From Octopus sinensis (Eukaryota), in contig NW_021825842.1 in NCBI RefSeq assembly GCF_006345805.1, positions 1 through 14,539 on the forward strand: a DNA stretch of 14,539 nucleotides. Reading direction: 5' to 3'. Each line of letters starts with the position of its first letter. The stretch's first letter is position 1. The position numbers and the translations under genes are program-made. Of this stretch, positions 995-14,095 are shown piece after piece. The notes under the pieces were generated by a model that was given only the letters and a program-made list of their open reading frames with translations, did no database searches and was not told where the DNA came from.

Positions 995-1009
995 CTAGGG
1001 GCTCCTTTT

Positions 1010-1125
1010 ATACGACAGGCTTCTTGCAGTTTCCATCTATCAAATCCACCGACAAGGCTTTGACCGGCGCGAGGCTATAGTAGCAGTCACAAGCCCAAGG
1101 TGCCACGCAGTGAAACTGAACCCAT
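1010..1125 (-). mobile_element. SINE family A, 5' body fragment
   Basis: acgacaggcttctt..cagtttccatctatcaaatcca..acaaggcttt..gaggctatagtag..cccaaggtgccacgcagtgaaactgaaccc matches 7783-7895. Confidence 0.9.
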
Positions 1126-2858: not shown

Positions 2859-2878
2859 TGTTGTTGTTGTTGTTGTAG
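2764..2878. repeat. Compound (TAG)(CAG)(TAG)(TTG) microsatellite
   Basis: Direct. Confidence 0.95.
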
Positions 2879-2882
2879 TCTC

Positions 2883-3096
2883 AAAGCGGCCAGGTAGAAG
2901 AATCGTTCGCACGCCCGGCGAAATAGCTACATTTCGTCCATCTTTTAGGTTTTGAGTTCAAATTCCACCGAGGTTGACTCTATTTTTCATCCCTTAGGGA
3001 CCAGTGGATGGTAGTGGGGGTTCGTTGTCATCAACTTACCCCTCTCTTCCTCCACCCAAATTGCTGGCCTTGCGACAAAATTTTGAAACCAATATT
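2883..3096 (+). mobile_element. Diverged SINE family C (B box plus conserved central domain, possibly Meta-type)
   Basis: B box gagttcaaattcc followed by ccgaggttgactctatttttcatccctt, resembling the GTTGACTCAGCCTTCCATCCTT SINE domain; 3' ggccttgcgacaaaattttgaaacc then short AT tail. Confidence 0.75.
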
Positions 3097-5302: not shown

Positions 5303-5510
5303 CGTAAACACACCATCACTGGTTGTCAAGCGGTTGAAGGGGGAAAACGAAAGCAGAAAGACACAGACACATAGATATTTACAAACATACGACGGGATTC
5401 TTTCAGTTTCCGTTCACCAAGTCTACTCACAAGGCTTTGGTCGGACGAAGGTTATTACAAAAGAAACTTGCCCAAGGTACAATGCAGTGTCACTGAACCG
5501 GGAACCATGT
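5303..5510 (-). mobile_element. SINE family A, diverged central fragment
   Basis: cgtaaacacacc..ggttgtcaagcg..acgacggg..tttcagtttccgt..ctcacaaggctttggtcgg..acttgcccaaggt..gaaccatgt matches 7629-7905. Confidence 0.88.
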
Positions 5511-5791: not shown

Positions 5792-6051
5792 ACAATTGCA
5801 GCGTGGAAGGTGTTTGTTAGCCATTTAAGAAACACACAAAAGCCGTTCGATTCACTTAAAAATTTAAGTTTAATTTGTCAAAATATTTTCGTCGCTAAAA
5901 TCTGCGATGCAGCACGGATTTTGTCAGTGAACAGGTCGCGGATTTTAGCGACGAAAATATTTTGACAAATTAAACTTAAATGTTGAAGTGAATCGAACGG
6001 CTTTTGTGTGTTTCTTAAATGGCTTACAAACACCTTCCACGCTGCAATTGT
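5792..6051. repeat. Long inverted repeat: arms 5792-5907 and 5936-6051, 28-nt spacer; probable inverted pseudo-LTRs of a Penelope-like element (element about 5736-6051)
   Basis: Arms of 116 bp, ungapped, 4 mismatches by manual comparison; (TA)n on both sides of the element; contains a hammerhead motif. Confidence 0.95.
5920..5969 (+). ncRNA. Minimal type I hammerhead ribozyme motif, G3:C8 core variant
   Basis: Stem I tttgtca(5920-26)/tgacaaa(5963-69); core GTGAACA(5927-33); extra G; stem II gtcgc(5935-39)/gcgac(5948-52); GAAA(5953-56); palindromic ATAT; U16.1=5961, H17=5962. Confidence 0.78.
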
Positions 6052-7118: not shown

Positions 7119-7512
7119 TGTAGTAGTAGCGTTAGTAGTAGTAGTAGTAGTTATTGCAGTTCTGGTGGCTACGGTGGTGGTGGTGGTGGTGGTGGCGGTA
7201 GTGGTGGTGGTTGTGGTGGTGGTGATAGTTGCGGTTATACTGATCATAGTGTTGGTGAAATTGTTATTGATGTTGTTGTTGCTGGTGATGGTGGTGGTGG
7301 TGGTGGTTATGGCGTTGGTGTTGGTGGTAGTGGTTGTGGTACTGGTTTTGGTGATGGTGATGGTGATGGTGATGATGTTGATAGCAGTGGTGGTCATGGT
7401 GATTTTAGTGTAGGTGGTACTGATGTTTGTTGTTGGTGTTGATGTTCACGGTGGGGTGTAAACGGTGGTAGTGATGTTGGTGGTGCGATAGCTATGCTGA
7501 TGGTAATGGGGC
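6725..7512. repeat. G/T-rich triplet field (GGT/GAT/GTT) with a (GTA)n core at 7018-7150
   Basis: Direct; source of the poly-T and poly-V ORFs. Confidence 0.93.
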
Positions 7513-7514
7513 AG

Positions 7515-7706
7515 GTGGCCATGCTGGAGCACCGCCTTTAGTCGAGCAATTCGACCCCAAGACTTATTCTTTATAAGCCTAGTACTTATTCTATCGGTCT
7601 ATTTTGCCGAACCGCTAGGTTACGGGGACGTAAACACACCAGCATCGGTTGTCAAACGATGTTGGGAGGACAAACACAGACACAAATACACACACACACG
7701 CATACA

Positions 7707-7748
<42 letters not shown>

Positions 7749-7947
7749 TATATATATATATATATATATAGATATATATATAACGACGGGCGTCTTTTAC
7801 TTTCCGTCTACCAAATCCACTCACAAGGCTTTGGTCAGCCCGAGGCTATAGTAGAAAACACTTGACCAAGGTGCCACGCAGTGGGAATGAACCCATAACC
7901 ATGTGATTGGTAAGCAAGCTATCTACCACACAGCCACTCCTGCACCT
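7515..7947 (-). mobile_element. SINE family A, near full length, with tRNA-like head and internal (TA)n(TG)n
   Basis: Minus-strand head aggtgcaggagTGGCTGTGTGGtag...ggGTTCATTCCcactgcgtggcaccttggtcaagtg has A/B boxes; body matches 13691-14070; extreme 3' end missing. Confidence 0.93.
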
Positions 7948-10023: not shown

Positions 10024-10463
10024 CTTTTATCTCTTATCTTTCATATGTTTCAGTCATTTTTGATTGCGGCCAAGCTGGAGCTCCCTCTTAAACAAATCCA
10101 AAGCAAGACTTTTTAAAAAAAAATTAAGCGTGGTACTTACTCTATCCGTGTACTTTTGCCGAGCCGTTAAGTTACAGGACGCAAACAAACCAACAACAGT
10201 TATCAAGCGGTGATGGGTGACAAACACACAAGCTCAAACGCATGCACACACATTCAGACATGCACGCACACACATACATACATATGTACAATATACCTAT
10301 ACAACGGGTTTCTTTTAGTTTCCATCTACCAAATCCACTGACCAGACTTTGGTCAGTCCGAGCCTATGGCAGAAGACCCTCTCCTAAAGTGCCACGCAGT
10401 GAAACGGAACCTGGGATCATAGTCGGGAAGCAACCTCCTTACTACGTAGCTTCACCTGTGCCT
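10024..10463 (-). mobile_element. SINE family A, full length but diverged
   Basis: tgtttcagtca..tgcggccaagctggagc..gtacttactctatc..ttttgccgagccg..ttccatctaccaaatccact..gtgccacgcagtg..cctgtgcct is collinear with 7515-7947 and retains the 3' end. Confidence 0.9.
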
Positions 10464-10620
10464 ATATATACATATGTATATATATACATATGTTACATAT
10501 CATACCTTGATACTGTGTGGGCTAAGATCCCCGTTGACAGGCCGCTGGTATTCATAGAATAAACACTTTCGGTATGAAAATTATGAACTCCTTACTAGAG
10601 TAACTGCTGCATATGCTGAG

Positions 10621-10628
10621 TATATAAA
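10621..10628 (+). promoter_or_regulatory. TATA-box-like motif about 50 nt upstream of the hammerhead
   Basis: gagTATATAAAccg in otherwise complex sequence; position fits a pseudo-LTR promoter. Confidence 0.4.
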
Positions 10629-10675
10629 CCGCTTGGCTGCTTGTATCACGGGAGATCAGTTAGAATGTTGTAGAC

Positions 10676-10718
10676 GCCTCTGATGAGAAGCCAATAAGGT
10701 TCGAAAATCGATTAAGGT
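10676..10718 (+). ncRNA. Minimal type I hammerhead ribozyme motif, canonical core
   Basis: Stem I gcct/aggt; CTGATGA(10680-86); stem II gaa[g]cc-aataa-ggttc(10687-10702); GAAA(10703-06); palindromic ATCGAT; U16.1=10713, H17=A10714. Confidence 0.78.
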
Positions 10719-10869
10719 TGCTCATCGTTTTTTCAGTCTGCAGAGAAATGGCTAAAAGTGACCCTGTTTATAATTATACCATATGTTATATATATATATA
10801 TATATAAAACATATAGTATAATAAAATAGGGTAAATTTTTGCTATTTGCTGAATCTAAATTTTGCTGAA

Positions 10870-10905
<36 letters not shown>

Positions 10906-10906
<1 letters not shown>

Positions 10907-11221
10907 TGTTTGTTTGTTTGTTTGTTCCTTCTCGATCCACGCGTGGCTCATTAGGGCCGGTTTCCCAGTTTCCTTGGCGTATAGGTTACCCACCTGGACG
11001 GGACGCCGGTCAGTCGCAGGTGAGCTGCAAGATGTAGGAGAAAAGAGTGAGGGAAAGTTGTGGCGAAAGAGTCAGCAGAAGTTCGCCGTTACCTTCTGCC
11101 GGAGCCGCGTGGAGCTTAGGTGTTTCACTCATAAACATACACATCACCCGGTCTGAGATTCGAACCCGCTATTCCTCGACCGCGAGTCCGCTGCTCTAAC
11201 CACTAGGCCATGTGCCTCCAC
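10906..11221 (-). mobile_element. Full-length tRNA-derived SINE, family B2, (AAAC)n tail
   Basis: Minus-strand head gtggaggcacaTGGCCTAGTGGttagagcagcggactcgcggtcgaggaatagcggGTTCGAATCtcagaccggg; tail at 10906-10926; possible ataca TSD (10901-05/11222-26). Confidence 0.92.
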
Positions 11222-11330
11222 ATACACGCATACACACACACATAAGTAGTAAAATGAAGTAGAGTGTGCTCGTCTGACCACACCACGGAAATTTCCTCAG
11301 TGACCATAGCGAAGAAAATGTGTGCCTGTG

Positions 11331-11363
<33 letters not shown>

Positions 11364-11410
11364 CGTGAATGGTAAGAGACATAACTTGAAAGCCATTACA
11401 GCCATGAATC

Positions 11411-11645
11411 TTTCAAAAACTCAAATCCCCCTTGAAAGGAAATTCAAAAATATGCGACAAGACACCTCTTCGCTATCCCCAGAAAACGAGTTCCAGGAAT
11501 GCTTCCATCAATGGAAACAACACCGGATAAAGTACGCGGCTTCTGAATGGGACATCTTTGAAAAGGATCAAATGTCAAATTGATATGTGTGTTGAAGTTT
11601 TGTTTTTATAGCACCAGTCCCGATATTTTTGGATCAAACTTCGTG
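11411..11645 (+). mobile_element. Mariner (Tc1/mariner) relic: degenerate transposase C-terminus plus right TIR
   Basis: Frame-shifted peptides FQKLKSPLKG / IQKYATRHLFAIP / ENEFQECFHQWKQHRIKYAASEWDIFEKD resemble the mariner C-terminus (FPKLK..L.G..F..W..RW.KC....G.YFE); TIR-like cagtcccgatatttttggatcaaacttcg at 11615-11643. Confidence 0.85.
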
Positions 11646-12139: not shown

Positions 12140-13276
12140 TTTTTTTCTTCTTTCAAATTTGCTATCATTTCTTGCCGAGTGTCTTCCCGACTCCTAGGGC
12201 AAAGAAACTCATAGTATACATTGGTAGGCCATTAAACCAAACTCAGTAGTTCGTTCATTTTTTTTTTTTTTCTTAAAGTTAAATTAAAATACATGAGCAG
12301 CAACAGTTCTCACATCGACAATGCTCTTCTCAATACGTGTGATGTACCAGTTAAGACAATCTTTTGCACTTCTTGCAGGGATGGTAAGCCAGGGATCATT
12401 CTCATATAATTTTCGGTTCCCTTCTTGATCATTCCTAGTGCTCCTACGATCACTGGTATTGTAACCGCCTTGAGATGCCACATTTTCTCAATTTCAATGA
12501 GTAGGTCTTTATATTTTCTGAGCTTGTCAAACTCTTTCGCTGAGATATTATGATCACAGGGGATGCTCATGTCGATCAATAAGCAAACTTTATTGTTTTG
12601 GTCTTTCACAACAATATCTGGTTTATTGGCCTTGTTGGTTCGGTCTGTATCCTGGAAAGTCCCACAGAATGGTTACATTTTCTCCTTCAGTTACAGCCTC
12701 AGGGTGGTGATTATACCACTTGTCGGCAGTTTTGATATTGTAATGCCGACTTATTAGCCAGTGGAGATATTGGCCAACTCTGTCATGTCTTAATTTATAC
12801 TCCACTGGTGCTAAGACTTTACATCCAGAGATTAGGTGGTCCACTGTTTCAATCATGTCGTTGCAGAATCGGCATTTTGGGTCTGCTCCATTTTTCATCA
12901 CATTGGCCTGGTAGTTCCGAGTTAATAGGCTTTGATCTTGAGCAGCCAGGATGAAACCTTCGCTCTCTGCTTTTAGCCCTGAGCTCCGTAGCCACTGATG
13001 GGTTTGCTTCTGGTCAACATCAGCTTGTTTGCTGTGGGTCACATATTTGCCGTGCAGAGGTTTCTCCTCCCACCTATCAGCCAATTGCTCGTGCGCTTTT
13101 TTCATTGCCATCATTTTCACCTTCTTTGCAACAATAGTTGCCGTACTTCCCTCGGGTTGTTCAGTTTGGGTATCCTGCACGAGATCAATAGCAAAGTTTT
13201 TGCTTTACTTTATGATAGAATGAAGCTTCTTTCGTCTCTCGTGATTTTCCACGAGCTTTAGCATCCAGTCATTCGA

Positions 13277-13690: not shown

Positions 13691-13829
13691 CATGGTTCTA
13701 GGTTCAGTCCCACTGCGTGACACCTTGAGCAAGTGTATTCTACTACAGCTTCGGGCCGACCACAGCCTTGTGAGTTGATTTGGTAGACGGAAACTGAAAG
13801 AAGCCCGTCGTATATATATATATGTGTGT

Positions 13830-13882
<53 letters not shown>

Positions 13883-14095
13883 GTGTTGTGTGTGTGTATG
13901 TGTGTGTGTGTTTGTGGCCCCAACATCGTTTGACAACCGATGCTGGTGCGTTTACATCTCTGATATCTAACGGTTCGGCAAGAGAGACCGATAGAATACG
14001 TACTAGCTTACAAAGAATAAGTCCTGGGGTCGATTTGCTCGACTAAACGCGGGGCTCCAGCATGGCCGCATTCAAATGACTGAAACAAATAAAAA
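13691..14095 (+). mobile_element. SINE family A lacking the A-box part of the head; internal (TA)n(TG)n
   Basis: catggttctagGTTCAGTCCcactgcgtgacaccttgagcaagtg...catggccgcattcaaatgactgaaacaaataaaaa; close reverse-complement match to 7515-7905. Confidence 0.93.

What the first reader, a model, noticed from the sequence alone, without database searches (positions are those of the whole stretch)
10487..10788. 293-nt TATA plus hammerhead unit with a terminal direct repeat: retrozyme or pseudo-LTR candidate
Seen: canonical CUGAUGA...GAAA-AUCGAU-UA hammerhead, TATATAAA about 50 nt upstream, and catatgtta repeated 293 nt apart at the unit edges. Known: metazoan non-LTR retrozymes are short type I hammerhead repeats that yield circular RNAs, and Penelope pseudo-LTRs combine a promoter with a minimal hammerhead. 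Inference: a solo monomer of such an element; the 9-mer is either a TSD or terminal redundancy. Caveats: stem I is only 4 bp and the 9-mer is AT-rich.
Basis: partly seen in the sequence, partly recalled or inferred. Interest (0 to 1): 0.72.

Follow-up and report, generated by a model that had tools for sequence, protein, structure and literature searches.

The report
Solo monomer of hammerhead tandem repeat
This is a lone copy of an old, roughly 280-base non-coding animal repeat that carries a hammerhead self-cutting RNA motif and occurs elsewhere as a head-to-tail pair; it is likely a passenger of Penelope-like jumping genes, a kind of element already described in other animals.

Summary
A type I hammerhead motif with a perfect core lies at 10676-10718 (0 of 300 shuffles give a strict match), TATATAAA lies 51 nt upstream, and the 9-mer recurs 293 nt apart. 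The key evidence is indirect. A public spurious ORF (P0086, unnamed 1539-nt contig) reads through two head-to-tail relatives of the unit, with a period of 279 nt and 71-75% identity at fixed positions. So the unit belongs to a non-coding family that forms tandems, and its monomer is about 280 nt (10504-10785), not 293. The 9-mer is therefore not terminal redundancy, and it is a doubtful target-site duplication. The ribozyme has the Penelope-type build (4-bp helix I, palindromic helix III), the copy sits in TA-rich DNA, and no Penelope ORF was found nearby. One ribozyme cannot release a circle, so this copy is probably inert. Best reading: a decayed solo monomer of a retrozyme-like, Penelope-derived non-autonomous repeat. 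Cleavage, expression, copy number and the partner element are untested. It is a new member of a known kind.

The parts
10504..10785 (+). Monomer of the repeat (about 280 nt, 41% GC, non-coding)
   Evidence: Aligns end to end to copy 1 of the dimer behind P0086 (119 bits; best of 25 shuffles 21.8). 10510-10746 aligns to copy 2 (81 bits; best shuffle 24.9). Period 279 nt at five landmarks. GC.
10621..10628 (+). TATA-like box (putative Pol II promoter; function inferred)
   Evidence: The TATAA core is compatible in both relative copies, each with one change in the octamer's first two letters.
10646..10660 (+). Initiator-like motifs (10646-49 and 10656-60); weak
   Evidence: compared with the A. 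vaga pLTR layout in PMC3846280.
10676..10718 (+). Type I hammerhead motif, predicted cut 10714/10715
   Evidence: 14 of 14 core positions are canonical here; 13 of 14 are compatible in each relative copy (C3 changed in copy 1, A9 in copy 2).
10668..10743 (+). Possible distal helix I extension (10668-75 with 10736-43); its 17-nt bulge holds a stretch complementary to the catalytic core (10720-27)
   Evidence: post hoc: distal helix 18 of 1000 shuffles, core duplex 11 of 1000, both 0 of 1000. Total fold energy is no better than shuffles (515 of 1000). Conservation not shown.
10746..10788 (+). 3' terminal segment shared with the neighbouring inverted fragment; holds the right 9-mer (10780-88)
10807..10872 (-). 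66-nt island between two TA runs; its inner ~43 nt is an inverted, 78% identical homologue of the unit's 3' end (likely the 3' end of a related family, tail to tail)
   Evidence: 35 of 45 identical, 0 of 5000 shuffles; outer arms alone 19 of 24, 1 of 5000.
10787..10806 (.). (TA)n run at the 3' junction (likely target)
10463..10504 (.). TA-rich local array at the 5' junction, holding the left 9-mer (10487-95), beside a SINE-like repeat
   Evidence: period 16, 2.8 copies; SINE-like copies.

Best explanation
The unit at 10504-10785 is a solo copy of an old, about 280-nt non-coding repeat family that carries a type I hammerhead motif and occurs elsewhere as a head-to-tail dimer; it is likely a non-autonomous Penelope-derived element (retrozyme type) that was probably copied into TA-rich DNA by a Penelope-like reverse transcriptase and endonuclease acting in trans. 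Shown: the motif, the unit's bounds, a dimeric relative with a 279-nt period, TA-rich flanks, and no coding partner found nearby. Inferred life cycle: tandem copies are transcribed, probably from the TATA box. The weak monomeric ribozymes pair through their palindromic helix III and cut once per unit, giving unit-length linear or circular RNA. That RNA is reverse-transcribed at an AT-rich nick. This copy has one ribozyme, so it could at most trim an RNA once and could not release a circle; it is probably inert.
For: Dimer relative: phmmer of the open frame 10664-10786 found P0086 (E 1.2e-4 among 1.84 billion proteins; no Pfam family, one Logan contig of 1539 nt). Its residues 20-113 and 115-194 both map to the unit across frame changes, so the similarity is at DNA level and non-coding. 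Copy 1 of the relative begins at the same place as the window copy, after residues that look like a translated TA-rich run, which suggests a defined end rather than random truncation (two cases only). Size and GC (41%) fit the retrozyme range of 150-450 bp and <50% GC (PMC7229834). Helix I of 4 bp, bulged helix II and a small palindromic helix III match the Penelope-type variants in flies, mosquitoes and shrimp (PMC4209133). The monomer fold is unstable (+0.9 kcal/mol), while the palindrome duplex is -6.1, as expected for a dimer-acting ribozyme. (TA)n targeting is reported for Penelope-like elements (PMC8557442). Retrozymes derive from pseudo-LTRs and often occur as solo monomers (bioRxiv 2026.07.22.740005).
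Against: The relative is known only as a protein translation, so its DNA, flanks and ribozyme stems are only partly determined. Each relative copy has one core mismatch, and both differ from the window at the palindrome position 10712, so no intact tandem pair has been seen. Core conservation (8 of 9 fixed positions per copy) is not clearly above the 71-75% background. A circular fold of the unit is no more stable than shuffles (z -0.01, 71 of 150) and blocks the core, whereas most animal retrozyme circles are described as highly self-paired with a free ribozyme. Rfam gives no hammerhead hit. No link to a Penelope ORF was found. A dimer of pseudo-LTRs would look the same.
Confidence: 0.62

Rival explanations
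1. Solo pseudo-LTR (3' remnant) of an autonomous Penelope-like element; the dimer behind P0086 is a doubled pseudo-LTR, and no free circle cycle exists.
For: The order TATA, initiator-like motif, hammerhead, 3' tail matches rotifer pseudo-LTRs of about 200 bp, which also occur solo and with 8-10-bp duplications (PMC3846280 passages). The ribozyme build is the Penelope type. The circle fold is unremarkable. Most Penelope insertions are 5'-truncated.
Against: No RT or GIY-YIG Pfam hit in the six-frame scan of the window (12 translations, all but a 45-base gap); the only retroelement hit was a zf-RVT LINE remnant 1.5 kb away. The ATG at 10748 is not kept in relative copy 1 or in the island. The 19-codon frame at the 5' end found no relative (weak test). 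The relative shares the 5' bound and runs from one unit straight into the next.
Confidence: 0.28
2. A dead repeat in which the ribozyme was never selected in this family (relic motif or satellite-like unit amplified at DNA level).
For: Both relative copies carry a core change. The active fold has very low predicted weight (1e-7 to 1e-10). In a published test 8 of 9 predicted retrozyme dimers did not cleave.
Against: The window copy has a perfect core plus three helices (0 of 300 strict shuffles). Insertion between TA runs with a defined end fits retrotransposition.
Confidence: 0.07
3. Chance motif in unique DNA.
For: No Rfam hit; 9 of 300 shuffles give a loose hit.
Against: Two full-length relatives keep the GAAA box and 13 of 14 core positions. 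Pattern matches in prokaryote-dominated collections lack the stems: 0 of 5, 0 of 2 and 1 of 120 pass.
Confidence: 0.03

Closest known systems
Animal non-LTR retrozymes (Cervera and de la Pena 2020, PMC7229834; Li, Clavereau and Pollet 2026, bioRxiv 10.64898/2026.07.22.740005)
   Same: Non-coding unit of about 280 nt, 41% GC, one type I hammerhead per unit, head-to-tail dimer in a relative, solo monomer here.
   Different: Helix I is 4 bp, not the canonical 6 bp. The circle is not predicted to be highly self-paired and the core is predicted to be blocked. It has a TATA box, a word absent from the main text of PMC7229834. No intact tandem pair or circular RNA is shown.
Pseudo-LTRs of endonuclease-bearing Penelope-like elements with hammerhead variants (Cervera and de la Pena 2014, PMC4209133; Arkhipova et al. 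2013, PMC3846280; Frangieh et al. 2024, PMC11167929)
   Same: Short helix I, small palindromic helix III, bulged helix II, TATA and initiator-like motifs upstream, AT-rich target, neighbouring inverted fragment.
   Different: No RT or GIY-YIG ORF found beside it and no conserved start codon in the unit. It lacks the extra unpaired base between positions 9 and 10.1 of the minimal consensus (the shrimp example also lacks it). The inverted neighbour is tail to tail and 78% identical, whereas head-to-head is reported as the usual form.
Newt/axolotl satellite-type hammerhead repeats (HHR_Amex1/2, PMC7229834)
   Same: Weak palindromic helix III needing a dimer; unit of about 300 nt.
   Different: Those keep the loop 1-loop 2 contacts and form large arrays; neither is shown here.

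Membership tests
Animal non-LTR retrozyme | Type I hammerhead in the unit | tested here: met
   13 of 14 core positions compatible in each relative copy
Animal non-LTR retrozyme | Unit of 150-450 bp, GC under 50%, non-coding | tested here: met
   279-282 nt, GC 0.41; similarity to the relative crosses frames
Animal non-LTR retrozyme | Tandem organisation at this locus | tested here: not met
   Single copy in the window; hence filed only as a solo monomer
Animal non-LTR retrozyme | Family forms head-to-tail repeats | tested here: met
   One dimer, period 279 nt, seen through translation P0086
Animal non-LTR retrozyme | Two consecutive units with complete hammerheads ('active' by Li et al.) | tested here: inconclusive
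   The one dimer seen has a core change in each unit; other arrays could not be examined
Animal non-LTR retrozyme | Highly self-paired circle with a free ribozyme (typical, with exceptions) | tested here: not met
   z -0.01 and core blocked for this decayed copy; the family consensus was not available
Animal non-LTR retrozyme | Self-cleavage and circular RNA in vivo | not testable with these tools
   No assay possible and no reads were laid
Animal non-LTR retrozyme | Target-site duplication longer than 4 bp | tested here: inconclusive
   9-mer present, but 18 of 889 background pairs match and the right copy aligns with the neighbour's terminus; empty site not seen
Penelope-like element pseudo-LTR | Hammerhead variant with short helix I and palindromic helix III | tested here: met
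   against PMC4209133 text and Fig. S3; both relative copies differ at 10712
Penelope-like element pseudo-LTR | Adjoining ORF with RT and GIY-YIG endonuclease | tested here: not met
   (window, all but a 45-base gap); negative; not testable genome-wide
Penelope-like element pseudo-LTR | Includes the first codons of the ORF | tested here: not met
   ATG 10748 not kept in relative copy 1 or the island
Penelope-like element pseudo-LTR | Promoter motifs upstream of the ribozyme | tested here: inconclusive
   TATA box present (23 of 2000 by chance), partly kept in relatives; activity untested; D. virilis Penelope is TATA-less
Penelope-like element pseudo-LTR | Insertion in AT-rich or (TA)n DNA | tested here: met
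   such DNA is abundant in this window, so the test is weak
Penelope-like element pseudo-LTR | Sequence homology to a curated Penelope consensus | not testable with these tools
   No repeat library or host genome held; four short DNA motifs were absent from the text-held supplement of PMC8557442, where long runs are cut

The most novel reading that the evidence does not exclude
This is a snapshot of the pseudo-LTR-to-retrozyme transition in a lineage (probably an octopus; host recalled from its SINEs, not shown by a tool) where I found no hammerhead repeat described. The family keeps its own TATA promoter, has defined ends, shares a 43-nt 3' recognition end with a second family, and carries a built-in lock: a core-complementary strand in the helix I bulge that keeps the ribozyme off until a dimer partner or the Penelope protein refolds it.
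Probability: 0.15. Interest if true: 0.55.

Novelty: new member of a known kind. Interest (0 to 1): 0.3.

Why it matters
Hammerhead-bearing repeats derived from Penelope-like elements are already described across animals, and solo monomers are common, so this copy adds a family, not a principle. My searches for 'hammerhead' + 'Penelope' + 'octopus' and 'hammerhead ribozyme' + 'cephalopod' listed no description of such a family in cephalopods. The library lacks most subscription papers, and Repbase and Dfam were not searchable. If the host is an octopus, where Penelope-like DNA is reported as 6.83% of the O. vulgaris genome, the family offers an invertebrate test of the claim, so far made mainly in Xenopus, that retrozymes are freed pseudo-LTRs. 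It also offers a simple test of why Penelope hammerheads need protein help.

Tried and rejected
Host genome: none held. Rfam: no hammerhead hit. Reads: none were laid on the locus, so the empty site, copy number, ends and expression stay open. Run index: no RNA holder listed; 13 of 24 rows had small unlaid shares and 5 had none; one same-sample run of similar size held none of the words, so shares are noisy and do not separate a shared locus from many copies. Pattern scans for relatives: viral 0; metagenome 5 of 5 lacked the stems; generic viral scan 1 of 120 passed, not palindromic, and that scan covered 31 of 64 parts; prokaryote genomes 0 of 2; island pattern 7 matches. BLASTN of unit and island against all 134 loci gave nothing at E<=0.01. 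Idea that the first 19 codons are the end of a Penelope endonuclease (recalled likeness): no support. Idea that ATG 10748 starts a Penelope ORF after a splice acceptor: no homologue, no good donor, ATG not kept; dropped. P0085 (TPR protein, the other of 2 hits) matches 12-14 residues by its repeats; rejected as chance. A 24-nt hairpin in the 3' end is not predicted to be stable. An A-to-G editing signature between unit and island was not seen (2 of 8 substitutions, read). Atlas and earlier-finding look-ups by sequence and place were blank. The host could not be named by a tool: the only species names among LINE relatives were 2 Penaeus records of 84. In one search the last 'copy2' line repeats copy 1 and was not counted.

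Full report
Setting. The window is eukaryotic, microsatellite-rich DNA with several dispersed SINE-like repeats and a broken LINE remnant at about 12310-13204 (zf-RVT; 84 relatives, 2 named Penaeus). I recall the SINE sequences as octopus-type; no call shows that. No host genome is held.

Observation. The hammerhead motif is as described: helix I 10676-79/10715-18, CUGAUGA 10680-86, helix II 10687-10702 (5 bp, one bulge), GAAA 10703-06, an 8-nt palindrome 10706-13 and UA, with the predicted cut at 10714/10715. It is the only descriptor hit on either strand. Shuffles gave 9 of 300 loose and 0 of 300 strict hits, with strict limits set after seeing the motif. Rfam did not detect it. TATATAAA lies at 10621-28, 51 nt before the core; chance in that slot is 23 of 2000. 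The 9-mer occurs at 10487 and 10780 only.

Folding. The monomeric active fold scores +0.9 kcal/mol and has ensemble weight 1e-7 to 1e-10 in four contexts; the palindrome forms a -6.1 duplex. This fits a ribozyme that works as a dimer, as described for animal hammerheads (PMC4209133). Post hoc, an 8-bp helix (10668-75/10736-43) can extend helix I, and the 17-nt bulge between holds a stretch complementary to the core (10720-27). Shuffles of the 3' flank reach these in 18 and 11 of 1000, and both in 0 of 1000, but total stability is average (515 of 1000). The locked fold is -21.9 against -6.8 for the active one. A circular fold of 10502-10788 equals shuffles (z -0.01).

Relatives. DNA-level searches in prokaryote-dominated collections found nothing real. 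The run index listed 24 rows; 19 hold part of the unit, from 10 studies; 6 hold 38-54% of 24 words (4 studies, 3 organism labels); none holds all, and none was laid. The decisive hit came from a protein library. The naturally open 41-codon frame 10664-10786 found 2 proteins among 1.84 billion. One is a chance TPR match. The other, P0086, is a 195-residue prediction from an unnamed 1539-nt Logan contig with no Pfam family. tblastn matches it to different frames of the unit, so it is a spurious ORF over related DNA. A frameshift-tolerant alignment places residues 20-113 on 10504-10785 (119 bits; best of 25 shuffles 21.8; 118 of 158 fixed positions identical). It places residues 115-194 on 10510-10746 (81 bits; best shuffle 24.9; 92 of 130). 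The offset between the copies is 279 nt at five landmarks. So the family forms head-to-tail dimers, is non-coding and is old. Each relative copy is compatible with 13 of 14 core positions (C3 changed in one, A9 in the other), both differ from the window at 10712, the TATA octamer has one change in its first two letters in each, and the ATG at 10748 is not kept. These are limits set by a back-translation, not DNA reads.

Ends. The monomer is about 280 nt, so the 293-nt spacing of the 9-mer is not the period, and the 9-mer is not terminal redundancy. In the 279 register, 10497-10504 and 10776-10783 agree at 7 of 8 bases (read), an AT-rich and weak signal. As a target-site duplication the 9-mer stays possible, since 8-10-bp duplications are reported for Penelope elements. 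Against it: the left copy lies in a local TA-rich array, 18 of 889 TA-run-edge pairs in this window share such a 9-mer, and the right copy aligns with the terminus of a neighbour. Its inner part is an inverted homologue of the unit's 3' end (35 of 45, 0 of 5000 shuffles; outer arms alone 19 of 24, 1 of 5000). Its outer 25 nt do not match, so it is likely the 3' end of a related family that used the same target.

Mechanism. Shown: motif, bounds, dimeric relative, TA-rich flanks, and no RT or GIY-YIG hit in 12 six-frame translations covering all but 45 bases of the window. Inferred from the literature: transcription of tandem copies, one cut per unit by paired ribozymes, unit-length or circular RNA, and reverse transcription by a Penelope-like protein at AT-rich DNA. 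The anole Poseidon protein cuts AT-rich DNA, and its hammerhead cleaves only with protein present and is not needed for insertion in vitro (PMC11167929). This copy has one ribozyme and cannot excise a circle. I put 0.62 on a retrozyme-type non-autonomous family, 0.28 on a solo pseudo-LTR of an autonomous element, and 0.10 on the rest. The first two are close kin: Li et al. report that retrozymes match pseudo-LTRs and often occur as solo monomers.

Membership. It works like a non-LTR retrozyme, and the family meets the size, GC, non-coding and dimer criteria. This copy is not tandem and its circle is not well paired, so I file it as a solo monomer of a retrozyme-like family, not as an active retrozyme. 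It is not filed as a pseudo-LTR, because no adjoining ORF was found.

Papers seen. PMC4209133: parts 1-2 of 4, supplement file 2 part 2 of 3 and a term search (file 1 not searchable). PMC7229834: parts 2-3 of 6, the discussion and passages. bioRxiv 2026.07.22.740005: parts 1-3 of 5; its supplements are closed and may list related families. PMC8557442: passages and supplement searches (long runs cut; Octopus Naiads listed with (TA)n targets and, in one, a half core). PMC11167929: parts 1-2 of 4. PMC3846280 and PMC2377424: passages. PMC13282606: part 1 of 3 and a supplement search. Others: listings only. Searches for a cephalopod hammerhead family and for a 12-nt motif listed no description.

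Verdict. A real feature and a new member of a known kind. Interest 0.3.

Noticed in passing
window 10807-10872: 66-nt island between two TA runs whose inner 43 nt is an inverted 78% homologue of the unit's 3' end; likely the 3' end of a related Penelope-type family.
   Followed up: partly
P0086 (protein library, Logan contig of 1539 nt): A predicted 'protein' that is a read-through of a non-coding hammerhead repeat dimer; protein libraries can be mined for such repeats.
   Followed up: yes
window 12310-13204 (-): Frameshifted 3' remnant of a non-LTR retrotransposon (zf-RVT; the downstream part looks like a restriction-like endonuclease by recall), ending at a (TTA)n run; 84 relatives at 41-74% identity.
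   Followed up: partly
window 5792-6051: MITE-like element with 116-nt inverted arms, 97% complementary, 28 nt apart.
   Followed up: no
window 11278-11583 (+): Open frame whose end resembles a mariner transposase C-terminus (recalled; no matching Pfam hit).
   Followed up: no
window 1009-1122, 5387-5508, 7772-7883, 10283-10456, 13692-13821; 396-579, 7505-7700, 10125-10251, 13887-14067; 1416-1615, 10905-11225: Three dispersed SINE-like repeat families, 71-88% identical between copies.
   Followed up: partly
L078 (viral contig), around the match at 2867-2898 (-): The one of 120 pattern hits with helix I of 3 bp and helix II of 4 bp; possibly a phage type I hammerhead.
   Followed up: no
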